Positions 26,872 to 47,919 of a stretch of 64,000 bases of DNA are shown piece after piece. The position numbers and the translations under genes were made by a program. Source of the DNA: an uncultured Patescibacteria group bacterium (GTDB taxonomy: Bacteria > Patescibacteriota > Microgenomatia > UBA1400 > PJMF01); assembly GCA_905478415.1 (NCBI GenBank), contig CAJQIG010000005.1, positions 1,598-65,597 on the forward strand. The letters run 5' to 3'. The first letter of the stretch is position 1, and every line of letters begins with the position of its first letter. Under the pieces are notes generated by a model that did not search any database, had not been told where the DNA came from, and was given only the letters and a program-made list of their open reading frames with translations.

Positions 26872-26954
26872 AGTTGATGAGGTTTATTTTACCAGATTAG
26901 TGGTAGTGCTCTTTTTAGTACAAAACCGTCAACAAGTGTCGACGGTTTATTTTG

Positions 26955-27026
26955 AGCGGGAGACGGGGTTCGAACCCGCGACCTCTTCCTTGGCAAGGAA
27001 GCGCTCTACCACTGAGCTACTCCCGC
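26955..27026 (-). tRNA. tRNA-Gly (anticodon GCC)
   Basis: The reverse complement reads GCGGGAGTAGCTCAGTGGTAGAGCGCTTCCTTGCCAAGGAAGAGGTCGCGGGTTCGAACCCCGTCTCCCGCT. The anticodon loop is TTGCCAA. Confidence 0.88.
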
Positions 27027-27293
27027 AGATGTTGATCTAACATTCAGAATTATACAACCTGATGCTGATCTTGTGAATAAGTGTCTGAGGTCGTATAGTA
27101 CACATATGAACAGAAATCCCCTCACATCACCAGAAATGAACCGACAAATGGGCAAAGCTACCGATAATGGGCTTAAGTTTTTCTTCAAGTGGTTTGGGAT
27201 TGCAGTTACAGAACTTGTTAAGTTTATTAAAGTGTTGGTTTCTTCAGCAATGGGAAAATAATTTTTTTCAAAAATTTTTCAAATAAAGATGTG

Positions 27294-27366
27294 TGCCAAG
27301 TTCAGGAATCGAACCTGAATCTCATGTTTTTCAGACATGCGCCGTAACCACCTTGGCTAACTTGGC
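27294..27366 (-). tRNA. tRNA-Phe (anticodon GAA)
   Basis: The reverse complement reads GCCAAGTTAGCCAAGGTGGTTACGGCGCATGTCTGAAAAACATGAGATTCAGGTTCGATTCCTGAACTTGGCA. The anticodon loop is CTGAAAA. Confidence 0.85.
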
Positions 27367-27399
27367 ATCTTTGTATCAAGAAAAGATACTTTTTTTCTG

Positions 27400-27472
27400 T
27401 GGAATGTAAGGGACTCGAACCCCTGACCCTTCGGATGTAAGCCGAATGCTCTACCAACTGAGCTAACATTCC
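27400..27472 (-). tRNA. tRNA-Val (anticodon TAC)
   Basis: The reverse complement reads GGAATGTTAGCTCAGTTGGTAGAGCATTCGGCTTACATCCGAAGGGTCAGGGGTTCGAGTCCCTTACATTCCA. The anticodon loop is CTTACAT. Confidence 0.88.
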
Positions 27473-27479
27473 ATTTTTG

Positions 27480-27560
27480 TGCCCAGGAGAGGAGTTGAAC
27501 CTCCACACCTTGCGGCATACGCACCTCAAGCGTACGTGTATACCATTTCACCACCTGGGC
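27480..27560 (-). tRNA. tRNA-Leu (anticodon GAG), long variable arm
   Basis: The reverse complement reads GCCCAGGTGGTGAAATGGTATACACGTACGCTTGAGGTGCGTATGCCGCAAGGTGTGGAGGTTCAACTCCTCTCCTGGGCA. The anticodon loop is TTGAGGT. Confidence 0.8.
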
Positions 27561-27662
27561 ACTTTTAAAAGAGCATGTAGTGTGTGAAATCACAGACTAC
27601 AAGGCTTGTATTATAAAATACTTTCACCTTTTTCGGAAGTACGGCTTCTGCCGATTTTCAGG

Positions 27663-27750
27663 TGGTGCCAGAGATGGGAGTCGAACCCATACGCCCGTAA
27701 TTGAGCACTAGTTCCTGAAACTAGCCTGTCTACCATTTCAGCACTCTGGC
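27663..27750 (-). tRNA. tRNA-Leu (anticodon CAG), long variable arm, CCA encoded
   Basis: The reverse complement reads GCCAGAGTGCTGAAATGGTAGACAGGCTAGTTTCAGGAACTAGTGCTCAATTACGGGCGTATGGGTTCGACTCCCATCTCTGGCACCA. The anticodon loop is TTCAGGA. Confidence 0.8.
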
Positions 27751-38092: not shown

Positions 38093-38208
38093 TGATGCAT
38101 CTTGAGCATAGTTACTGCCAGGAGGGTTGTGAGGTTCTATTAGAATAATTTACCTTTTATCCAGTTGGTTGGCCAAGACTGCTCGCTCGCGTTGCTCACT
38201 GTGTGATG

Positions 38209-38381
38209 CTAGCCATTGAGGGTGGGGAAAGAATCGAACTTTCCTCTCAACCATTCCACTCACAGGGAAGCATTCTGCCGCTGAACTAAAGGTGATAATA
38301 CTTTGCTCACCTTCTGGGTATCGAACCCAGGTCTCTTCCGTGGTGGGTCAAGTGGGACTCGAACCCACGACACCCTGCTTA
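38209..38381. repeat. attL: the left copy of the 173-bp direct repeat. It contains a 3' fragment of tRNA-Lys (anticodon loop to CCA, ~38341..38381) plus ~130 bp of tRNA-flanking sequence that includes tRNA-like T-arm motifs.
   Basis: Matches 47711..47883 except for 2 substitutions. These form a compensatory pair in the tRNA T-stem (CTGGG/CCCAG versus GTGGG/CCCAC). Confidence 0.8.
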
Positions 38382-38581
38382 GGTAGCACGACTTAGATGT
38401 TAATACTTGTCTATTAAAAAATATTATACAGGGACAGTTTTATTTTGTCACTGAATTGTACTTAATAAATCTTGAATGCAAGGGATTTAGTGCTCCCCGT
38501 AATGGATTCGATACGAACTGCAATACTCGAGGCAGGCACTAATAAGTGGCTATACACTGAAGAATTTTTAACTAGTCCAGT

Positions 38582-39895
38582 TTAAAAAACACCTCTTTCA
38601 TTTAGTCTTTCAACTGAAATACCCTTTTGTAGGTCTTTAAACCCAAAGCTCCAATGTATGTCACGTGTTTTTTCAGCTACATATTCTTTCAAATCCGATT
38701 CATTCGATAGTGTCATTGTGTCTATAGCAATATCCCACGACCTTTGAGCAAAAACAGAAGTTCGAGGTTCTGGCCACATTGTTCTAATGGCAGGGTCTAT
38801 ATAAACATTTTCCATACCATTAATTTCCATAGTGCCTAAAATACTACCGCTAAATCCAAGTTTTTCATACATTTTACCTGCACCACTCAAGGTAACATAT
38901 AGTTGTGCAGCAAACCAAGAAAGGTAAATCGTTGGAGCACCACCCTCACCTGTTTTAAGAACATTTGTTGATGTGGACATCAAACCATTTGCGAAAACTT
39001 GTTGAGAATCTATTCCTCCATCTCTTCTTTTCCAACTTAGATGAATCATTCCTTCACTAATTGAGTCCCAATGAGTTGCCCTCGATGGAAAAGATGCAAA
39101 TCTAGTTCTAAATTCGGATTCCTGAATGAGCGTTTCAATATCTAAAGGTCTAATAAGCTCAGTCTGAGGAAAAAAAGGCTGTAAAGTTATATCTAACATT
39201 GCTACATTAATACCTAAATTGTGTTGAAATATTTGTGACTTGAATGGTGGCAAAGTATCCCCGTCTTCAAGGTGGATTTTCTTTGCTTCATAGTTTTGCT
39301 TTTCAACCTCAATTTCGTTCTTTCTTTCTCTATCTGCACTCTTTAGAAAGCTTTTATAGTTTAACTCAGCTCGGTTCTTATTATTATTTCTAGAAATCTG
39401 AGCCTTTTCACGCTTGCCAAACAGAAGTTCAATGTGCTCTGGCGATGCGATGTTCACAGACTTCTTTGTGCTTCCAGTTCTAATCCAAATATTACTGTCA
39501 TTATGAGCATAGTAAGGTGTTTCATTTCCTTCATATATTCTTAAGAGAAGAAATACTTTACCATTGTTGTCATTTGTCTTGTGAACCCCAAAACTTGGAA
39601 TAGGGGATATGTTGCCAATAACTTGAGCAATGTACTCATCGTGCCTTCCATCATCAATACCCTCCCATTTTGTTGGTTCACCTGTTTTTCTGTTTTCTCT
39701 AATACCTACAACAATTACGCCACCGCGAGTATTTGCGAACGCACAAACCAGCTTTGCTAGTTTCATCTTATCTGGAAGCTCCTCCTTGTAATCCAATTGC
39801 ATGCCTTCTGAATTTTTTTCTTCGGCAAAACTAACAACATCATCAAAAGAAAATTCACTCAATTTTTTAGTCAATATCTCCATTTTAGTCTCCAA
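38582..39895 (-). CDS. AlbA_2 / Schlafen-like (divergent AAA-associated DNA/RNA-binding) domain protein with an unknown ~230-aa C-terminal domain
   Basis: N-terminal ...LDYKEELPDKMKLAKLVCAFANTRGGVIVVGIRENRKTGEPTKWEGIDD... matches the AlbA_2 core (E.lEFK..l......l.k.vcAFANt.GG.l.iGv.d.g...Gi). Confidence 0.6.
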   Translation of the reverse strand: METKMEILTKKLSEFSFDDVVSFAEEKNSEGMQLDYKEELPDKMKLAKLVCAFANTRGGVIVVGIRENRKTGEPTKWEGIDDGRHDEYIAQVIGNISPIPSFGVHKTNDNNGKVFLLLRIYEGNETPYYAHNDSNIWIRTGSTKKSVNIASPEHIELLFGKREKAQISRNNNKNRAELNYKSFLKSADRERKNEIEVEKQNYEAKKIHLEDGDTLPPFKSQIFQHNLGINVAMLDITLQPFFPQTELIRPLDIETLIQESEFRTRFASFPSRATHWDSISEGMIHLSWKRRDGGIDSQQVFANGLMSTSTNVLKTGEGGAPTIYLSWFAAQLYVTLSGAGKMYEKLGFSGSILGTMEINGMENVYIDPAIRTMWPEPRTSVFAQRSWDIAIDTMTLSNESDLKEYVAEKTRDIHWSFGFKDLQKGISVERLNERGVF

Positions 39896-40122
39896 TCCTT
39901 TTCAACTCATCTAAATATCTGTTAACTAACTCAGCCATTTTTTTCTGTATCCTAACCTACTAAGTCACCAGCTAAGTCATGAGTAAATTCAAATAAATCA
40001 ATGAAATTCTCGTTACTGCCAATGTTCATTGTAGCATCACTAGAATACGAGTTCATACCTTTAGGGTTAGGTAGCACGACTTAGATGTTAATACTTGTCT
40101 ATGGCTATATTATAGCGCGCTC

Positions 40123-40812: not shown

Positions 40813-41455
40813 TTAATTTTTTTCTTTTGGCTTCTAAAATAGCAGGTTGAACAAAGTAATAATCAAAAAGACTCTCAATCACATCGAGATTCCATTCTGC
40901 TTCACCTTCCTCCACGTCCACAATCCCACCAGTGTTTTTACTTTTGATTGGATGTGCTGCAAAGTTCCCAACCACACGAATAGCATCAATGCCTTGTGAT
41001 ATTGATGATGGTAGGCCTCCATTGTCTAATACTTGTTGAATTTCACTATCAAGGCTTCCTGCTTTAACATTGATTGTTTCAATTTTACCTGTTTCGCTAT
41101 GTAACACCTTGAGCTTTGCTTTTTCTCTAAGTATGTGTTGCAAACATCTTCTGCTTAAAGCTGCACTAGCCTTGGGACTATCCTGAAGGACGTTTGCTGC
41201 TTCTAAATATTCATGCGTGTATTCACTTGGGATTTCTTTTGAAATGGGACTTCTGGCTATGTTTTTAGGATACACTACTATATTGGAACTTCCTCCGCCA
41301 TCTTTTGGTATTTTTCTAAATCTTATTATTGCTTTACCACATTCAGGACAAATCATTGAACTTATATACCAGTGTGCATCAATATCTGAAATAGAGTTGC
41401 GAGATAGTTCAGAAAATGATTCGTGTATAGATGTTTTACAATGTGGACATATCAT
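40772..41455 (-). CDS. Zinc-ribbon + DUF4145 domain protein
   Basis: N-terminal CPHC...(x27)...CPEC is a four-Cys zinc ribbon. C-terminal ...AALSRRCLQHILRE...IDAIRVVGNFAAHPIKSKNTGGIVDVEEGEAEWNLDVIESLFDYYFVQP matches the DUF4145 pattern (R..lE..l......ld.iR..GN.aaH......i..eea...l..le.ll...f). Confidence 0.6.
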   Translation of the reverse strand: MICPHCKTSIHESFSELSRNSISDIDAHWYISSMICPECGKAIIRFRKIPKDGGGSSNIVVYPKNIARSPISKEIPSEYTHEYLEAANVLQDSPKASAALSRRCLQHILREKAKLKVLHSETGKIETINVKAGSLDSEIQQVLDNGGLPSSISQGIDAIRVVGNFAAHPIKSKNTGGIVDVEEGEAEWNLDVIESLFDYYFVQPAILEAKRKKLNAKLEEAGKPQLK

Positions 41456-42326
41456 GTTTATATTATACCAAAGTATTCCGAAAAGGTTTTACCTCGATAT
41501 AACAAAAATATTTTATTGCATAGTAAACAATACCCTATTATTATTCCCCTGCCATAAGTACTGGATAATTAACCTAGAGTAGCTATACATGATTAGTATC
41601 CAGTGGACTTAGCCTAGTCTGACTTTCTAGGTCGAATTAACACTGGGTTGTAGACTGGTGTTATTTATGGGCTCCCGCAGGACAATAATGACCCCCGTGC
41701 AAGTTCACTTATAGTCAAAACCATAAGCTATCAATCACGCTCAGCGCAGTCTCTAAGGTACAACAGACCTCTTCAATATATTTTTAATATTTCCGTCACC
41801 ACTATTTCCAGGGCCTAGTGGCAAGCCCTCGTATCCATTCTCGCGGTTAATTTAAAGACACCCGCTACTGCTAGAATAAAGCTCACCTGTGTCTGTGGTG
41901 GTAATAAAAAAACCACCAAAATAGGTTTCTCATGTTTTTCCTACTTGGTGGTTTCAAATGAAACACACTATATGTTTTTTCTCGCTGTAATAAAAAAATC
42001 CACTTAGACGTAGTTAGTATTGTGTATGCTGTGAGGCTACTAACCACGTCCAAATGGACTTTTCATACACATAACTATACCTACCCTCTATATTGTCCCA
42101 ATAAAGACCGTTTGTCAATAGATAAAAGCTTGATAAATCAGACAAAATAGACAATGATGAGCAAGTAGATAACTATGTAGTATTATAGGGCCTCACACCA
42201 ATGTTTATCTTGCTTTAGGTTTTGAGCTACTGGTAACACCCACACCCCCCTCTGTGAGAAAGGGGCCCTTTAACCCGAGTTGGACTACTAGTAGAAGGTA
42301 TTATAAGGATATTTTTTTTCCTTTTT

Positions 42327-44408
42327 TTACCACTCTTTTGGAGGATTTTCAAAAAGGTCTATTAATTCCAAAGCTCTTTTGCCAATATTTTTACCTTTTG
42401 AGCTCTTATAAATCATAATTCTCTTTTCAATTTCTTTAATTGGGTATAACTCGCCTAATGACTTAAGACCTAATGTTTCGTATGAACCTTTATTTGAAGA
42501 GTGAACCATACCTGTAAAACCATCTAATAATTTAATTAACCCTACATCATCTTGAACTAATTTTCGAATGTAATTCTTGACGCTCTTTTCATTTCCCCAC
42601 TTCAACCACCTGAATAATATTACATCTAGGCGAGTTTCATCTTCGAGTTTCCCATTCTTTACTTTCTTTTTTATTAATTTTAAAACCTCTTTTCTGAATT
42701 TTTCTACAAATTTTTTGTCAACTAATATATCTTTATCATTTTTTTCTATTTGCTCACCAAAGACATCAAGGAGTCTAAGAGAAAAATGAATATTTTGAGT
42801 TTCATTCATAGTGTTAAGAATAAAATCAGCACGTTTATCTTTTGAAACAATATTCTTTAGGGCCTGGTATGTCAAGCGACCCACTTGAGTGTTAAAGTCA
42901 TTTAACCCAAACAATCCACTCTGAGTATCTGAGACATGTCCATCAATATTCCATAAATTCACTATTATTTTTTGGATTTGTTCTTGGGTAATTTTTTCAA
43001 TTCTGTCTAATAACAAATCAATAGTCTTAGTCAGTTTCTTTTCTTTATCTAGTAATAAAAACTTTTCTTTCAAAGAATCTTCATTTGTTTTTGTAGAAAG
43101 AACTGCTTGCACCTCAACTTCTGAAACCTCATCTTCAGGCACACTTAGCTGAAAATAAAAATCGAATTTTTGCTCTGAACAAATTCTCTTTTGTAGACGC
43201 CATTCTCTTTCATAACTTGAACCACTCGATGAATCCATCTTCAACTGAGGAAAAAGTTCTCTTGTTATTCCATCTATTGACGACATAAATTCTTTAGGAA
43301 CGATTTTTTCATTATCTAAAATTTCTTTATAAATTTTTTGACGTTCTTCATCTCTTTCTCTTGAAGGAAAACTAAGTAATGAATCATCTTTATTCAAAAA
43401 AACATACTTGTTACCAGCAATAACATTATAATATGTTGGGACAAAAATTCTTAAAGCTTCTACCGCAATAAAATCCACTGGATTAACATCTTCCTTGTTA
43501 ACTACAGACCAATTTAGTTGAAGAGAACTCAAAAAACGATTAATATCTCTAATGGTAACAAACAAATTACTAAAACCATTTCTAAATATGGCTTCCCAAT
43601 GCTTCTGTTCTTCACTGTCAAAAACATATGTACCGTAAATAGAATCTAGTGTTTTATCTAATCCAGAAAACAAAACACCTCTTAGGTTCTGTTTATCTGG
43701 AACTGGGATTGTAAATGATACCTGAATAATTTTTTTAAGATAGTCATGTCCTTCAATTCCACGTTCTGTTATCCTACTCGCTACTTTTTCTCTATCATAT
43801 GCAAGTAAAAAAACCGTGTTTGGGAAGTTTGCTGTCATTTTAACCATCTTTAATATCAGTAATGTCTCCTGTTTATCTAGGCGGTCAATATCATCAATTA
43901 CTACCAAAATTTTCTTTCTCCGCCTTTTTAAAAGAACATCAATCGATTCTCTTATTTCAGTTAAAGTTTGAACACCACCATATTTTTTAATTTTTCCTGG
44001 TGAAAACTCAAAAAACCAAAGAAATTTTACAGAAGGATTAAACTCAAACATGGACTGTTTAAGTAGTTTTGAAGAATAATTTGTAAGTTTCTGCTTCAAT
44101 TCGTCTTTTTCACCATTTTTATCTAATGCAGCAGTAAATGAGTCAAAAAAATCGGAAATTAGTTGATTTTGACTAGAAAAATTCCAAGGATTGAACTTAA
44201 TAATAACGACATCTTTTCTTTTAAAATTTTCAAGAATTAAATTTATAAATGACGTTTTTCCTGCACCCCATATACCTTCAATACCAATAACATAGCTTTC
44301 TTTGCCTTTATAATTCTTAATTAGCTGTGCTACCTTTTCAGCTAATGGCGCCCTTTTTAAAACGTCTTCTTTACCTTTTTTTTGTATTGGTGAATCAGTT
44401 GATATCAT
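42327..44408 (-). CDS. KAP-family P-loop NTPase
   Basis: N-terminal Walker A GIEGIWGAGKTSFINLIL, followed by a long helical region with VVIDDIDRLDKQE (Walker B-like DD). This is typical KAP NTPase architecture and length (693 aa). Confidence 0.7.
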   Translation of the reverse strand: MISTDSPIQKKGKEDVLKRAPLAEKVAQLIKNYKGKESYVIGIEGIWGAGKTSFINLILENFKRKDVVIIKFNPWNFSSQNQLISDFFDSFTAALDKNGEKDELKQKLTNYSSKLLKQSMFEFNPSVKFLWFFEFSPGKIKKYGGVQTLTEIRESIDVLLKRRRKKILVVIDDIDRLDKQETLLILKMVKMTANFPNTVFLLAYDREKVASRITERGIEGHDYLKKIIQVSFTIPVPDKQNLRGVLFSGLDKTLDSIYGTYVFDSEEQKHWEAIFRNGFSNLFVTIRDINRFLSSLQLNWSVVNKEDVNPVDFIAVEALRIFVPTYYNVIAGNKYVFLNKDDSLLSFPSRERDEERQKIYKEILDNEKIVPKEFMSSIDGITRELFPQLKMDSSSGSSYEREWRLQKRICSEQKFDFYFQLSVPEDEVSEVEVQAVLSTKTNEDSLKEKFLLLDKEKKLTKTIDLLLDRIEKITQEQIQKIIVNLWNIDGHVSDTQSGLFGLNDFNTQVGRLTYQALKNIVSKDKRADFILNTMNETQNIHFSLRLLDVFGEQIEKNDKDILVDKKFVEKFRKEVLKLIKKKVKNGKLEDETRLDVILFRWLKWGNEKSVKNYIRKLVQDDVGLIKLLDGFTGMVHSSNKGSYETLGLKSLGELYPIKEIEKRIMIYKSSKGKNIGKRALELIDLFENPPKEW

Positions 44409-44485
44409 ATTGATATACTATCACAAAACTTTTTCAAATTTTTACTTTCTTAGTATTAACATGACCTGTTGTATAATAAAGAAAA

Positions 44486-44606
44486 CTCGCGGCTATTATT
44501 ACACCTTTTTTAGGTGAGTTTTTACTTGTCGTTAATGATAGGCAGCCCTATCTGTCAAACGACAAGTCGTAGCCGCGAGGAAGTCTAGGATGGGCTGCCT
44601 TTTTTT
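44486..44606 (+). promoter_or_regulatory. Candidate cis-regulatory leader RNA. It has nested perfect inverted repeats (10-bp, 10-bp, 6-bp and 4-bp stems) plus an alternative 8-bp pairing and a U7 tract. A putative -10 (TATAAT 44472..44477) lies upstream. The downstream gene starts at 44629.
   Basis: P1 is CTCGCGGCTA (44486..95) pairing with TAGCCGCGAG (44570..79). P2 is CACC-ttttttta-GGTG. P3 is ACTTGTCGTT (44524..33) pairing with AACGACAAGT (44558..67). The inner hairpin is GATAGG-cagc-CCTATC. GGCAGCCC (44541..48) is complementary to GGGCTGCC (44592..99), which is followed directly by TTTTTTT. Confidence 0.45.
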
Positions 44607-44628
44607 GAAAAGCCCAAGGAAGGAACTC

Positions 44629-45303
44629 ATGATTCAACTCGGGCTATTTTTTTTAGGAATTTTTGTATACACATTTGGTCTTAATCTTTTTGCACAATAC
44701 CGCAGAGGACAAATGCAATTTGGTGGCGTACTTGGAATTTTTGCCGCCTGTTGGGCTTTGTTCACTAACATTTATTTGTTCCTGGTAATGATTCCTTTAT
44801 TCTTCATTTTCCGCAAACTTGCTAGTTATTTAGTCTTCCTCTTTTTCAAGAAACAATATCCCAAAGCAGTGAACCTTGATTGGAAAACATTTCAGTTACG
44901 AGAAACATACAGAGAAAATAAAAAACCTGAAAACTTACTAGACGGCAAATGTCTTGAGGGCATGGTGAGTAAAATGGAAGCAAAAAATAAAGAGCTGGAA
45001 GAATTTTGTGACAACGCATACAAGGTCACAGGTATTAAAGAAACTTTGCAAAAACATGATGAAAAGAAGGAGAGTCTGAAAAGTATCTATAGTCAGGTTC
45101 TAACTAGTTATGGAGGAATTTTTACCGCGAAAGCAATAATTACTGCTCCTTACTACCTCAACAAATATCTTGAAACAATCAATAAACCTGGTCATTTCTT
45201 AAAACCAAATACTGAAATCAAAATGTTTGGTGATATTGACCCTAAAGAGAAACAGTTTCTGGGAAGTCTCAATGAGTCATTTGGATTCCCTGACTTAATA
45301 TAA
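44629..45303 (+). CDS. Hypothetical membrane protein. The start at 44629 (RBS AAGGAAGG 44616..44623) is preferred over the ORF-track start at 44590.
   Basis: Two N-terminal TM helices, then a soluble Lys/Glu-rich domain. There is a good Shine-Dalgarno sequence 5 bp upstream of the Met at 44629. Confidence 0.4.
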   Translation: MIQLGLFFLGIFVYTFGLNLFAQYRRGQMQFGGVLGIFAACWALFTNIYLFLVMIPLFFIFRKLASYLVFLFFKKQYPKAVNLDWKTFQLRETYRENKKPENLLDGKCLEGMVSKMEAKNKELEEFCDNAYKVTGIKETLQKHDEKKESLKSIYSQVLTSYGGIFTAKAIITAPYYLNKYLETINKPGHFLKPNTEIKMFGDIDPKEKQFLGSLNESFGFPDLI

Positions 45304-45320
45304 CAACCAAGAAAGGAAGC

Positions 45321-45647
45321 ATGAGCAAGAATTACTTAGCGCTTAGCACTGTTGCAACAGTGTCATTAGTAGGAATCCTAGCTATACTTTTCTACACAAC
45401 CTTCGTGGTTAGACCTAGAGAACAAGCACTACAAAAGCATATTGCAGTTATGCAGGCTTGCAATCAGCAACGTCTATACATGACTTGGGAGCTAAAAAAC
45501 TCACTAAATGATGTGAGCGAGTTTGCTCCTCAAGAAGAAAAAGACCTTATAAACCAGACATTGGATAATGCTACAGGATATTTTCATAGCTCTGATTTTT
45601 TTGATACATGTTTCGAAAAAACTATAGAGGAATGGAATTTAAATTAA
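45321..45647 (+). CDS. Small hypothetical membrane-anchored protein
   Basis: A 108-aa ORF with one N-terminal TM. Confidence 0.35.
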   Translation: MSKNYLALSTVATVSLVGILAILFYTTFVVRPREQALQKHIAVMQACNQQRLYMTWELKNSLNDVSEFAPQEEKDLINQTLDNATGYFHSSDFFDTCFEKTIEEWNLN

Positions 45648-46479: not shown

Positions 46480-47559
46480 TTATTTTGATATGTTTTGATG
46501 TTCAAATGCTTGTTTGTCACTAACCATAATTTCAATGATTAATTTCCCTTTTTTTCTACATTCTTTTATTGTAAAACGCTTATCATTTTTTATCCCTGAT
46601 TCATCTAGTCTTCGTTGCTCCAGGTCAAGGCGAGTTTCTGAACTTTCATCTTTCAACCACAAAGGGTCGTACATACGCTGTACGTCACTTTTGCCCTTTG
46701 TTGAAAATTGTCGGTAAATGTTTAGAGTAACATTGATACCTTTGTGACCCATTACTTCTTTGACGTCTATCGGTTTTGCCCCAGCATCAATCATTGCTGT
46801 AGTTTTAATATGCCTAAAACGGTGCAAGGTAATTCTTTTCTTGATACCATGTTCTTTTAAAGATTCTCTCCAGGATTTTGCAACACCTTCTGGGTTTGCA
46901 GGGAAAACCTTTTCCCAGTTTGTCCTATTTTTGAGAGTATCGATATATTTGGGAGGTATTATCATTATTTCCCTCCTTCTCCCCTTTCTTAGAACCTCAA
47001 AATAAGGTTCAGGCACATCGAAGTGAAGGTCATCACCTGTGACATGTGTAAGCTCCTCTTTTCTTGCACCGGTTAGAAGTAGCATGATGAGATACAGTCT
47101 TCGCTCATTCTTTCTTTCTCTGACTAGTTTATTATCCGTTGGTTTTATTTCATTACTTTTATTCGCTAGGCTAAGCGCTAATTCAGGTGAAATCATGTCC
47201 TTTTTCCTATTATCAACAATGACGAAAGGGACCTGCCTGGAAAAGTTATGGCTAATGTGTTGGTACAAAAAGAGCCAGTTAATGAAAGAGCGAATCATTC
47301 GTATTTCAGTGTTCAGAGATGAAGGCTTCCATGGTTTTTTTAGATTATCATTCTTGTGACAACCATACCTTCTCAGCTTTTCGAGGTAAGCTATGATGTT
47401 TTTGGTTATCAAGGATTGATTCCCAAATTCTCGGGTAAATCTGTGAAAGAATTCACGTTTCTTTTTTTGTGTCTTGGGAGACTCATTTTTTCGCAGAGGA
47501 ACATCGATGCAGTACTCCTTTAGGAGTGTGTGGAGTTTTTTCCCTTGGATTGCTACCAT
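46480..47559 (-). CDS. Tyrosine recombinase / phage-type integrase
   Basis: C-terminal catalytic motifs: ...LLLTGARKEEL (Arg), ...ITLHRFRHIKTTAMIDAGAKPIDVKEVMGHKGINVTLNIYRQ (H-x-x-R ... H ... Y). It is adjacent to tRNA-Lys. Confidence 0.85.
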   Translation of the reverse strand: MVAIQGKKLHTLLKEYCIDVPLRKNESPKTQKKKREFFHRFTREFGNQSLITKNIIAYLEKLRRYGCHKNDNLKKPWKPSSLNTEIRMIRSFINWLFLYQHISHNFSRQVPFVIVDNRKKDMISPELALSLANKSNEIKPTDNKLVRERKNERRLYLIMLLLTGARKEELTHVTGDDLHFDVPEPYFEVLRKGRRREIMIIPPKYIDTLKNRTNWEKVFPANPEGVAKSWRESLKEHGIKKRITLHRFRHIKTTAMIDAGAKPIDVKEVMGHKGINVTLNIYRQFSTKGKSDVQRMYDPLWLKDESSETRLDLEQRRLDESGIKNDKRFTIKECRKKGKLIIEIMVSDKQAFEHQNISK

Positions 47560-47710
47560 AACAGAATTTACCTAGATGTGTATCTAAGTACTTTCTGTTG
47601 TTTCTTTTCCAAGGCGGGACGCTATGGGTAATGGACCCCGATATTGCGTTATCCCCATAAAGGGAGGCGATGCCAAACAACTTAATGCTAATCTGGACTA
47701 GCTCATGAGG

Positions 47711-47883
47711 CTAGCCATTGAGGGTGGGGAAAGAATCGAACTTTCCTCTCAACCATTCCACTCACAGGGAAGCATTCTGCCGCTGAACTAAAGGTGATAA
47801 TACTTTGCTCACCTTCTGGGTATCGAACCCAGGTCTCTTCCGTGGTGGGTCAACTGGGACTCGAACCCAGGACACCCTGCTTA
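47711..47883. repeat. attR: the right copy of the 173-bp direct repeat. It overlaps the 3' portion of the intact tRNA-Lys.
   Basis: See attL. Confidence 0.8.
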
Positions 47884-47919
47884 AGAGGCAGGTGCTCTAA
47901 CCGACTGAGCTATTGACCC
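47843..47919 (-). tRNA. tRNA-Lys (anticodon CTT), CCA encoded. It is the integration target of the island.
   Basis: The reverse complement reads GGGTCAATAGCTCAGTCGGTTAGAGCACCTGCCTCTTAAGCAGGGTGTCCTGGGTTCGAGTCCCAGTTGACCCACCA. The anticodon loop is CTCTTAA. Confidence 0.88.

What the first reader, a model, noticed from the sequence alone, without database searches (positions are those of the whole stretch)
44472..44631. Nested perfect palindromes plus an alternative pairing and a U7 tract upstream of a membrane-protein gene. Riboswitch/attenuator-like leader.
Immediately after a TATAAT box, the sequence forms P1 (10 bp: CTCGCGGCTA/TAGCCGCGAG), enclosing a small hairpin (CACC/GGTG) and P3 (10 bp: ACTTGTCGTT/AACGACAAGT). 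P3 encloses GATAGG-cagc-CCTATC. The segment GGCAGCCC buried in the inner hairpin is exactly complementary to GGGCTGCC 44 nt downstream, and that is followed by TTTTTTT. This gives two mutually exclusive folds, one of them terminator-like, which is the logic of a riboswitch or attenuator. The annotated ORF-track start (ATGGGCTGCC at 44590) lies inside this structure. The better start at 44629 has a strong RBS. Two perfect 10-bp stems in ~35%-GC DNA are very unlikely by chance.
Basis: seen in the sequence. Interest (0 to 1): 0.55.

Follow-up and report, generated by a model that had tools for sequence, protein, structure and literature searches.

The report
Conserved three-way-junction leader RNA
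A roughly 120-base RNA that folds into a three-armed structure starts the transcript of a small membrane-protein operon inside a mobile defence island. The same fold, built from different sequence, recurs at three other metagenomic loci, so it is a real regulatory RNA that matched no Rfam family; what triggers it is unknown.

Summary

It is a conserved RNA, not a DNA palindrome. Covariance models built from it found three more copies: L029, L151 and L153. Each has a perfect TATAAT 6-12 nt before P1 and points into a membrane-protein operon. Stem sequences differ but pairing holds (13 of 32 pairs compensatory, window vs L029).

The long-range helix (apex of the long hairpin against a segment 7-13 nt past P1, then a U run) is kept in all copies, with one or two compensatory pairs. 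In L153 the same segment is also the 3' arm of a canonical terminator.

No Rfam family matches. Junction nucleotides are not conserved, and two unrelated gene families follow the element, so a small-molecule riboswitch is unlikely.

Best reading: a new structured 5' leader that gates membrane-protein genes by attenuation and Shine-Dalgarno (SD) occlusion, much like type I toxin mRNAs. The divergent neighbour gene varies: PifA-like KAP NTPase, HNH or CTD10.

The parts
44449..44456 (+). CTTAGTAT, a -35-region block of the leader promoter
   Evidence: Conserved with L153 (CTTAGCAT), although the leader that follows is only 37% identical. Its role as a promoter element is inferred.
44472..44477 (+). 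TATAAT -10 box. The expected transcription start is about 44484, 1-2 nt before P1.
   Evidence: Sequence. A perfect TATAAT lies 6-12 nt before P1 in all four copies. Homology between L029 and L151 starts exactly at this box. The consensus scan did not score it because the -35 is weak.
44486..44496 (+). P1, 5' arm (CUCGCGGCUAU)
   Evidence: Pairs with 44569-44579, 11 bp including one terminal U.G. Five of its 11 pairs are compensatory against L029.
44502..44516 (+). Small hairpin (CACCU-UUUUU-AGGUG)
   Evidence: Present in all copies with different sequence. The L029 and L151 versions differ by A-U to G.U and U.G to C-G.
44524..44567 (+).
   Evidence: The basal stem is kept in all copies (10 of 10 pairs each). 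The inner GUCG/CGAC pairs and the apical GGCAG are the best-conserved sequence.
44540..44548 (+). T5: apical segment AGGCAGCCC, the 5' strand of the long-range helix
   Evidence: Exactly complementary to 44592-44600 (I9). The helix is kept in L029, L151 and L153.
44569..44579 (+). P1, 3' arm (GUAGCCGCGAG)
44592..44600 (+). T3: GGGCUGCCU, the 3' strand of the long-range helix
   Evidence: In L153 the equivalent segment is also the 3' arm of a canonical terminator hairpin.
44600..44606 (+). U7 run directly after T3
   Evidence: U-rich runs follow T3 in every copy: UUUUAGGUUU in L029/L151 and UUUUGUUU in L153.
44616..44625 (+). Shine-Dalgarno region AAGGAAGGAA
   Evidence: Predicted to lie inside an AGCCC/GGGCU hairpin. 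The other copies have clearer SD-sequestering hairpins.
44629..45303 (+). 224-aa membrane protein gene: N-terminal transmembrane helices, no known family
   Evidence: The L153 orthologue is 89% identical.
45321..45647 (+). 108-aa single-pass membrane protein, second gene of the operon
   Evidence: The L153 orthologue is 82% identical.
42327..44408 (-). Divergent neighbour: PifA-like KAP NTPase, a variable defence cargo gene and not part of the RNA
   Evidence: Pfam KAP_NTPase 2.7e-49. PADLOC PifA 1.8e-88. Replaced by HNH in L153 and by CTD10/MC6-7/DUF2326 in L151.

Best explanation
The element is the 5' end of the mRNA of the membrane-protein operon (44629-45647). It belongs to a structured leader RNA family that matched no Rfam model.

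Transcription starts 1-2 nt before P1, from the TATAAT at 44472. The first roughly 95 nt fold into a very stable three-way junction: P1, a small hairpin and a long hairpin. The apex of the long hairpin (AGGCAGCCC) is complementary to a segment 13 nt past P1 (GGGCUGCCU), and that segment is followed directly by a U run.

Inferred mechanism. The junction is a scaffold that presents the apical strand to the emerging 3' segment. The resulting helix next to the U run stops or pauses most transcripts: it acts as an attenuator. Weak structures around the Shine-Dalgarno sequence then keep translation of any read-through transcripts low. Together they hold a pair of possibly harmful membrane proteins off until some factor disturbs the apex. 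That factor could be a protein, an antisense RNA, processing or a ribosome.

Shown: the fold, its strand, its conservation with covariation, the promoter, the conserved long-range helix, and the linkage to membrane-protein operons.

Inferred: termination, translational gating, toxicity of the proteins, and the trigger.
For: Fold and chance.

Family:
- A model built from the window alone finds L029 (E = 1e-5 in 539 kb).
- The window+L029 model finds L151 (E = 6e-27) and L153 (E = 2e-9), each exactly upstream of a membrane-protein ORF.
- No other hit turned up in about 100 loci.

Covariation:
- 13 of 32 pairs changed on both sides and 96.8% of cells paired. Slid controls give 0-1 compensatory pairs.
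- All helices are intact in three distinct sequences.

Strand:
- 3WJ energy on the membrane-gene strand against the opposite strand: L153 -49.9 vs -38.7; L029 -51.6 vs -45.2; L151 -54.2 vs -50.9.
- Long-range duplex: L029 -27.3 vs -15.9; L153 -22.4 vs -13.4.

Promoter:
- TATAAT lies 6-12 nt before P1 in 4 of 4 copies.
- L029/L151 homology begins at that box.

Long-range helix:
- 9 contiguous pairs in all three distinct sequences.
- C-G to U-A and A-U/C-G/G-C compensatory columns, plus two G-C/G.U columns.
- A U-rich run always follows it.
- In L153 the same 3' segment forms an 8-bp canonical terminator that overlaps the last 4 nt of P1.

Leader continuity:
- Between L029 and L151 the whole leader down to the start codon is 93-100% identical, while the block as a whole is about 80% identical.
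- It includes an SD-sequestering hairpin with several one-sided, pair-preserving changes.

Gene linkage:
- The window and L153 share the 224-aa/108-aa operon (89% and 82% aa identity).
- L029 and L151 share two small transmembrane ORFs (43 and 62-63 aa), each with an SD; the 62-aa one has a 74%-identical homologue.
Against: - There are no expression data of any kind.
- Only three distinct sequences exist (L029 and L151 are nearly identical), so the covariation statistics are thin. The model-fitted alignment also leans towards the structure.
- The window has no canonical terminator hairpin before the U run. A long-range or pseudoknotted helix acting as a terminator is unproven.
- The nested alternative fold is 9-12 kcal/mol worse than the junction fold.
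- The two downstream gene families are unrelated, and nothing shows they are toxic.
- A 54%-identical homologue of the 224-aa gene lacks the element.
- Between the window and L153, the leader is 37% identical while the flanking coding sequence is 87% identical. Recombination breakpoints flank the leader on either side. This behaviour fits a self-contained RNA gene just as well.
Confidence: 0.5

Rival explanations
1. It is a stand-alone small RNA gene: promoter, three-way junction, and a terminator made by the long-range helix plus U run. Its roughly 120-nt product acts in trans or binds a protein. It could be an antitoxin or regulator for the neighbouring membrane proteins or defence genes. 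Read-through into the operon would be incidental.
For: - The unit has its own perfect -10 box and a U run 3' of a strong helix in every copy. L153 has a canonical terminator right after the junction.
- Recombination breakpoints fall on both sides of the unit, as expected of an autonomous module.
- The unit is adjacent to a KAP gene in the window and L029, with a decayed remnant in L030.
- The junction would be very stable as a free RNA.
Against: - Between L029 and L151 the high conservation runs without a break from the junction to the start codon, as expected for a 5' UTR.
- No separate promoter for the operon scores well.
- The unit always points into a membrane-protein operon (4 of 4).
- No trans target was found. 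The one 9-nt match to the KAP mRNA is low-complexity (D5), and by eye it has no counterpart in the L029 KAP sequence.
Confidence: 0.2
2. It is a small-molecule or ion riboswitch. The three-way junction is an aptamer, and the long-range helix plus U run is its expression platform.
For: - The architecture resembles three-way-junction aptamers with a terminator platform.
- In L153 the terminator's 5' arm overlaps the 3' end of P1, as in ON-type purine switches (the comparison rests on general knowledge).
- Conserved structure with variable stems is typical of riboswitches.
Against: - No Rfam match, even at E <= 10.
- Junction strands are not conserved in sequence or length: UAUUA / AACAAA / UUUACA, and AGUUUUU / none / UU.
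- The conserved bases sit in the distal long hairpin and its partner strand.
- The regulated genes are two unrelated families of membrane proteins with no metabolic link.
- The family is very rare.
Confidence: 0.08
3. It is a DNA-level element. Options are an operator for a DNA-binding protein, a folded single-stranded recombination site (attC-like), or the marker of a hotspot where defence cargo genes are exchanged.
For: - In the window nearly all pairs are Watson-Crick, so both strands fold equally well (-42.8 vs -42.7).
- In both locus pairs, different defence genes sit next to the element between conserved flanks.
- attC sites also conserve structure rather than sequence (general knowledge).
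Against: - Operators conserve sequence, not complementarity. Here 13 of 32 pairs changed on both sides.
- Strand asymmetry of 3-11 kcal/mol from G.U pairs in the other copies.
- A conserved TATAAT, U run and downstream SD hairpins are unexplained by a DNA site.
- The breakpoints lie outside the element, not inside it.
- No integron-type integrase is present: the only recombinase gene scanned in the island is the tRNA-Lys tyrosine integrase. By eye there are no attC-like R'/R'' boxes.
Confidence: 0.05
4. It is a passive 5' structure: a stabiliser that protects the mRNA from 5'-end-dependent decay, with no switching function.
For: - The structure starts within 0-5 nt of the predicted transcription start in every copy.
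- It is extremely stable.
Against: A simple hairpin would be enough for protection. The conserved three-arm architecture, the conserved apex and its conserved partner strand next to a U run all point to more than protection.
Confidence: 0.12

Closest known systems
timP mRNA leader of the enterobacterial timPR type I toxin-antitoxin system (PMC11228461, PMC13000454)
   Same: A structured 5' UTR in front of a small inner-membrane protein gene. It has a pseudoknot or long-range interaction between distant stem-loops, an SD-sequestering stem-loop, and mutually exclusive conformations that gate expression without a metabolite ligand.
   Different: - No sequence or Rfam relationship.
- timP control is translational and uses a known antisense sRNA (TimR). 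No antitoxin RNA has been identified here.
- The conserved helix here abuts a U run, which looks like termination.
- One of the two downstream gene families encodes a 224-aa protein, which is not a typical short toxin.
Other type I toxin mRNAs with folded, translationally inert leaders (hok, dinQ, H. pylori aapA1; PMC6733600, PMC5066626)
   Same: Tight repression of small hydrophobic proteins by mRNA folding and SD occlusion. The genes are often carried on mobile elements.
   Different: Those systems rely on processing and cis-antisense RNAs. None is known to use a 5'-terminal three-way junction with an apex-to-tail helix.
Three-way-junction riboswitches with terminator platforms (purine, TPP and c-di-GMP-I classes; general knowledge)
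   Same: P1 closes a junction with two hairpins, followed by a U-run platform. In L153 the terminator overlaps the 3' strand of P1.
   Different: Riboswitch junction and loop nucleotides are highly conserved and bind a ligand, and the regulated genes share a pathway. Neither holds here.
Retron msr-msd non-coding RNA (general knowledge; bioRxiv 10.1101/2020.06.21.156273)
   Same: A terminal inverted repeat (a1/a2, like P1) encloses a short hairpin and then a long hairpin. Retrons sit in defence islands, often with transmembrane effectors.
   Different: None of the island ORFs scanned matched a reverse-transcriptase domain, and none is called near L029, L151 or L153. The apex-to-tail helix, U run and SD hairpins are not retron features.
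Leader control of the Lactococcus abortive-infection gene abiD1 (PMC2661086; title and abstract only)
   Same: A defence-context gene whose expression is controlled at the level of mRNA translation and activated by a phage protein.
   Different: A different organism and gene. Only translational control is reported there. No activation by a phage factor is shown here.

Membership tests
Any Rfam 15 family | Covariance-model match at or near the gathering score | tested here: not met
   - Whole window at gathering threshold: tRNAs only.
- 44300-44800 at E <= 10: only noise, all below 10 bits.
- L029 and L151: none.
Small-molecule riboswitch | Conserved structured domain upstream of genes on the same strand | tested here: met
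   Four copies, each followed by an operon on the same strand.
Small-molecule riboswitch | Invariant unpaired nucleotides that form a ligand pocket (junctions or loops) | tested here: not met
   Junction strands differ in sequence and length among the three distinct copies. This rests on only three sequences.
Small-molecule riboswitch | Regulated genes share a metabolic or transport theme | tested here: not met
   Two unrelated membrane-protein families with no Pfam, NCBIfam or PADLOC match.
Small-molecule riboswitch | Direct ligand binding | not testable with these tools
   Needs in-line probing, ITC or SHAPE with ligands.
Intrinsic (Rho-independent) terminator / attenuator | A G+C-rich hairpin immediately followed by a U run | tested here: inconclusive
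   - Window: no local hairpin before U7. The only strong partner for the pre-U segment is the apex 43 nt upstream.
- L153: canonical 8-bp stem plus TTTTGTTT.
- L029/L151: long-range helix only.
Intrinsic (Rho-independent) terminator / attenuator | Transcripts actually end at the U run, conditionally | not testable with these tools
   Needs Term-seq or in vitro transcription.
Type I toxin-antitoxin toxin mRNA | A short hydrophobic toxin ORF | tested here: inconclusive
   L029/L151 have 43-aa and 62-63-aa transmembrane ORFs with SD sequences. The window and L153 have 224-aa and 108-aa membrane proteins, which is atypical.
Type I toxin-antitoxin toxin mRNA | A folded leader that occludes the ribosome-binding site | tested here: inconclusive
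   SD-sequestering hairpins are predicted in L029/L151 (several one-sided, pair-preserving changes) and in L153. The window has only a weak enclosure.
Type I toxin-antitoxin toxin mRNA | An antisense or divergent antitoxin sRNA, and demonstrated toxicity | not tested
   No antisense promoter scored in the scans. RNA-seq and toxicity assays are needed.
Retron | An adjacent reverse-transcriptase gene | tested here: not met
   - All island ORFs of 120 aa or more are listed. The ones scanned against Pfam gave no RVT domain.
- No RT gene is called at L029, L151 or L153.
MITE / REP-type repeated palindromic element | Many copies per genome | tested here: not met
   - One copy in 64 kb.
- A P1-pattern scan of 185,579 species genomes gave 23 hits, mostly in high-G+C genomes. 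This is near my estimate of about 30 chance matches, and none is a full copy.
Integron attC-like folded recombination site | An integron integrase, R'/R'' core sites, and crossover inside the site | tested here: not met
   Only a tRNA-Lys tyrosine integrase is present. By eye there is no GTTRRRY / RYYYAAC at the ends. Breakpoints lie outside the element.

The most novel reading that the evidence does not exclude
The leader is an RNA gate for abortive infection or addiction. Its conserved apex would be the sensor surface. A phage product, loss of a cognate antisense RNA, or the neighbouring defence protein would disrupt the apex-to-tail helix. That would lift attenuation and release membrane-damaging proteins.

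A related reading is that the 'promoter, junction, terminator' unit is a portable regulatory cassette. It would sit at the edge of a slot where defence genes (PifA-like KAP, HNH, CTD10/MC6-7/DUF2326) are swapped, and it would be exchanged together with them.
Probability: 0.12. Interest if true: 0.8.

Novelty: new variant of a known kind. Interest (0 to 1): 0.55.

Why it matters
Structured leader RNAs that act without a metabolite ligand are few and hard to find. This one has an unusual design: a 5'-terminal three-way junction whose apex pairs with the strand just before a U run. It sits at the border of a slot where defence genes are swapped, in very small, poorly understood bacteria (probably Patescibacteria/CPR).

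If it gates harmful membrane proteins, it would extend the logic of type I toxin mRNAs to a new RNA fold and a new phylum. It would also show a way of building a terminator or antiterminator from a long-range helix.

Practically, the covariance model built here gives a handle for finding more members. The window vs L153 contrast (leader 37% identical inside 87%-identical genes) is a clean natural experiment on conservation of structure without conservation of sequence.

Tried and rejected
1. Known RNA family: Rfam at gathering threshold and at E <= 10 gave nothing.

2. Leader of the KAP NTPase gene. I held this view after finding L029 and then rejected it.
- The KAP genes carry a conserved extended -10 box 6 nt before the start codon and look leaderless.
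- About 110 other KAP loci lack the element.
- A KAP copy at least 90% identical sits in a restriction-modification operon without the element.
- L151 and L153 have the element without a KAP gene.
- Wobble pairs favour the opposite strand.

3. Retron: no reverse transcriptase found.

4. Repeated mobile palindrome: single copy. The genome-wide P1 scan gave chance-level hits. A cyanobacterial REP-like element next to an IS200/RAYT-like gene shares only the P1 10-mers.

5. Similar DNA in phage or plasmid records: none.

6. Viral-contig scans:
- P1 pattern: nothing.
- Long-hairpin pattern: one unrelated terminator.
- A motif pattern derived from two copies: 5 hits, none confirmed by the model.

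7. A trans target in the KAP mRNA: only a low-complexity 9-mer (D5), with no counterpart seen by eye in the L029 KAP sequence.

8. A leader peptide: by eye there is a 17-codon ORF inside the long hairpin, without an SD and with no ATG at the equivalent place in L029.

9. Structure of the 224-aa protein: the AlphaFold model has mean pLDDT 53 from a 2-sequence alignment. It is unusable, so I ran no fold search.

10. Family scans of the downstream proteins (Pfam, NCBIfam, PHROGs, PADLOC): nothing informative.
Full report
**1. The observation**

- TATAAT lies at 44472-77.
- P1 is 44486-95 / 44570-79, 10 perfect pairs, or 11 as RNA with a terminal U.G pair.
- A small hairpin, CACCT/AGGTG, lies at 44502-16.
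- A long hairpin spans 44524-67. It has a perfect 10-bp basal stem and an apical GATAGG-cagc-CCTATC.
- AGGCAGCCC (44540-48) is exactly complementary to GGGCTGCCT (44592-600), which is followed by T7.

The 99-nt core folds at -44.4 kcal/mol against -20.4 +/- 3.3 for shuffles (z = -7.2). The P1 pattern is unique in the window and absent from 100 shuffles.

In the window both strands fold equally well. The window alone therefore cannot say which strand matters, or whether the element works as DNA or RNA.

**2. Setting**

The host contig is about 41% G+C and looks like a Patescibacteria/CPR genome (PamR-like pilus protein, Elp3).

The element lies in a 9.5-kb, 32-35% G+C island. The island is bounded by a 185-nt direct repeat at tRNA-Lys, with a tyrosine integrase at one end. 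It carries defence-type genes:
- a PifA-like KAP NTPase, 42327-44408 on the minus strand (Pfam 2.7e-49; PADLOC PifA 1.8e-88)
- a PD-T7-4/DUF4145 protein
- a Schlafen/AlbA_2 protein
- a HEPN-like pair

The element fills the 220-bp gap between the KAP gene and a divergent operon. That operon encodes a 224-aa membrane protein and a 108-aa single-pass membrane protein.

No Rfam family matches, even at E <= 10. Phage and plasmid records contain no similar DNA.

**3. Finding relatives**

The 224-aa protein is very rare: two clusters among 5.8 billion proteins. Its 54%-identical homologue (L001) has a divergent HTH gene upstream and no such structure.

Scanning upstream regions of KAP homologues turned up L029 (KAP 66% identical). 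It has a junction of the same architecture, about 80 nt from the KAP start, with entirely different stem sequences.
- A covariance model built from the window alone finds it at E = 1e-5 in 539 kb, and finds nothing else.
- Between the two copies, 13 of 32 pairs changed on both sides and 96.8% of cells pair. Structures slid by 1-3 columns give 0-1 compensatory pairs.

I first read this as a KAP-linked element. That reading failed:
- About 110 further KAP loci lack it.
- The close KAP genes carry a conserved TGnTAnnAT box 6 nt before their start codon and look leaderless.
- A KAP copy at least 90% identical sits at the end of a restriction-modification operon.

**4. The decisive loci**

In L029, two small transmembrane ORFs (43 and 62 aa, both with SD sequences) follow the element on its own strand.

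A 74%-identical homologue of the 62-aa ORF led to L151.
- The model hits L151 at E = 6e-27.
- There is no KAP gene. The divergent neighbour is a CTD10 / MC6-MC7 / DUF2326 / EamA block.
- Homology between L029 and L151 starts exactly at the TATAAT box. It runs through the junction, the whole leader and both small ORFs. A second homologous flank lies beyond the variable genes.
- The leader is 93-100% identical there, better than the roughly 80% for the block as a whole.

A member of the 224-aa protein's 90% cluster led to L153.
- The operon is orthologous: 89% and 82% aa identity, 85.6% DNA identity starting at the ATG.
- The divergent neighbour is an HNH gene.
- The model hits directly upstream at E = 2e-9.
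- The window and L153 leaders are only 37% identical, between a recognisable promoter (63%) and coding sequence (87%). Even so, all helices are intact.

So the constant unit is: TATAAT, junction, apex-to-tail helix, U run, membrane-protein operon. The divergent defence gene is variable cargo.

**5. Strand and molecule**

All four copies have a perfect TATAAT 6-12 nt before P1 on the membrane-gene strand.

G.U pairs occur only on that strand: 1 in the window, 4 in L029 and 5 in L153. The energy differences follow:

| Copy | Junction, gene strand vs opposite (kcal/mol) | Long-range duplex, gene strand vs opposite |
|---|---|---|
| L153 | -49.9 vs -38.7 | -22.4 vs -13.4 |
| L029 | -51.6 vs -45.2 | -27.3 vs -15.9 |
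| L151 | -54.2 vs -50.9 | not computed |

The two differences between L029 and L151 within the junction are A-U to G.U and U.G to C-G.

It does not fit an operator or a duplex-DNA palindrome.

**6. The 'alternative pairing'**

The helix between the apex of the long hairpin and the segment 7-13 nt past P1 is present in every copy:
- window: AGGCAGCCC / GGGCUGCCU
- L029 and L151: GCGGCAGCUCC / GGGGCUGUCGC
- L153: GGGCAGUUCCC / GGGGACUGUCC

Nine contiguous pairs hold in all three distinct sequences. Two columns changed on both sides (C-G to U-A; A-U/C-G/G-C), and two columns alternate G-C with G.U. A U-rich run always follows.

In L153 the same 3' segment is also the 3' arm of a canonical 8-bp terminator, whose 5' arm overlaps the last 4 nt of P1. 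The window has no such local hairpin.

Forcing the helix into a nested fold costs 9-12 kcal/mol relative to the junction fold. However, the helix clashes only with the weak apical hairpin (-5.3 and -5.6 kcal/mol, against -20.7 and -27.3 for the duplex). I therefore think it more likely that the 3' segment invades the apex while P1 and the basal stem persist, which gives a pseudoknot. A wholesale refolding of the RNA seems less likely. This step is inference.

**7. What it is not**

- A junction-pocket riboswitch. The junction strands differ in sequence and length. The conserved bases are the inner long-hairpin pairs, the apical GGCAG and its partner strand. The regulated genes are two unrelated families with no functional annotation.
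- A retron. No reverse transcriptase is present.
- A multi-copy palindromic repeat.
- An attC-like site. The breakpoints lie outside it, and there is no integron integrase.

**8. Most likely mechanism**

Shown: this is a 5'-terminal structured leader of membrane-protein operons.

Inferred: the junction is a scaffold that presents the apex to the nascent 3' segment. The helix next to the U run attenuates transcription. L153 adds a canonical terminator that uses the same strand. Downstream hairpins then occlude the SD.

The closest analogues in logic are type I toxin mRNAs. The nearest is timP, whose 5' UTR uses a pseudoknot, a long-range contact and an SD-sequestering stem-loop to gate a small inner-membrane toxin (PMC11228461, PMC13000454).

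Membership in that class is not established. No antitoxin RNA has been found, no toxicity has been shown, and one of the downstream gene families is much longer than a typical toxin.

A stand-alone small RNA remains a serious rival, because recombination breakpoints flank the unit on both sides.

**9. Verdict**

- The family matches nothing in Rfam 15, is rare (four copies, three of them distinct) and has an unusual architecture.
- Function is inferred only.

Noticed in passing
window 38204-38388 and 47706-47890; tRNA-Lys 47843-47919 (-); integrase 46480-47559 (-): A 185-nt direct repeat (97% identical) bounds a 9.5-kb low-G+C island integrated at tRNA-Lys(ctt). The island carries several defence-type genes.
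   Followed up: partly
window 38379-38414 and 40067-40102: A perfect 36-nt direct repeat brackets the Schlafen/AlbA_2 gene (38582-39895). The first copy abuts the att repeat. It could be the remnant of a second, tandemly integrated island or cassette.
   Followed up: no
window 44415-44423 (-); also L028 ~63-71, L029 ~2217-2225, L030 ~2484-2492, L031 ~178-186, L113 ~456-464: The PifA-like KAP genes of the close subfamily have a conserved extended -10 box (TGnTAnnAT). It ends 6 nt before the ATG/GTG, and there is no Shine-Dalgarno sequence. They look like leaderless mRNAs.
   Followed up: partly
L152 4001-6079; L027 3174-5252; L111 86-2164; L030 2191-2275 and 2499-4577: The KAP/PifA-like gene moves as a single gene. 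Copies at least 90% identical sit beside the leader RNA (L029) or at the end of a methylase/ResIII restriction operon (L152; L027 is similar). Others start 8 nt after a tRNA gene (L111; I read it by eye as tRNA-Glu) or 220 nt after tRNA-Ser (L030).
   Followed up: partly
L030 2303-2326: GGACAGCCCCCGAGCTGCCGC matches the apical strand and the partner strand of the L029-type element fused together, without P1 or the hairpin arms. It is apparently a decayed remnant beside a KAP gene that has no membrane operon next to it.
   Followed up: partly
L029 282-850 and L151 5501-6070: A 570-nt stretch is 94.7% identical between two loci that are otherwise about 80% identical. No gene is called there and no Rfam match appears even at E <= 1. 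It may be a large uncharacterised non-coding RNA.
   Followed up: partly
L005 2194-2206 and 2690-2830: A cyanobacterial MAG has a nested palindrome (P1 plus two hairpins) with the same P1 10-mers as the window. It is flanked by tandem repeats and sits next to an IS200/RAYT-like gene, so it looks REP-like. I judged the shared 10-mers to be chance, because the genome-wide scan gave about the number of hits expected by chance.
   Followed up: partly
L001 1300-1560, 1560-2816, 2823-3062: The only distant homologue of the 224-aa membrane protein sits beside an RVT_1/GIIM reverse transcriptase, which has a structured upstream region. That homologue has a divergent HTH_3 regulator in place of the leader RNA.
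   Followed up: no
window 41455-42327: About 870 bp of the island have no sizeable ORF. The part at 42233-42316 is 81% identical to L153 1897-1979, so it is the conserved flank on the far side of the variable cargo slot.
   Followed up: no
window 26954-27750: A cluster of five tRNA genes (Gly, Phe, Val, Leu, Leu) lies on the minus strand within 800 bp.
   Followed up: no
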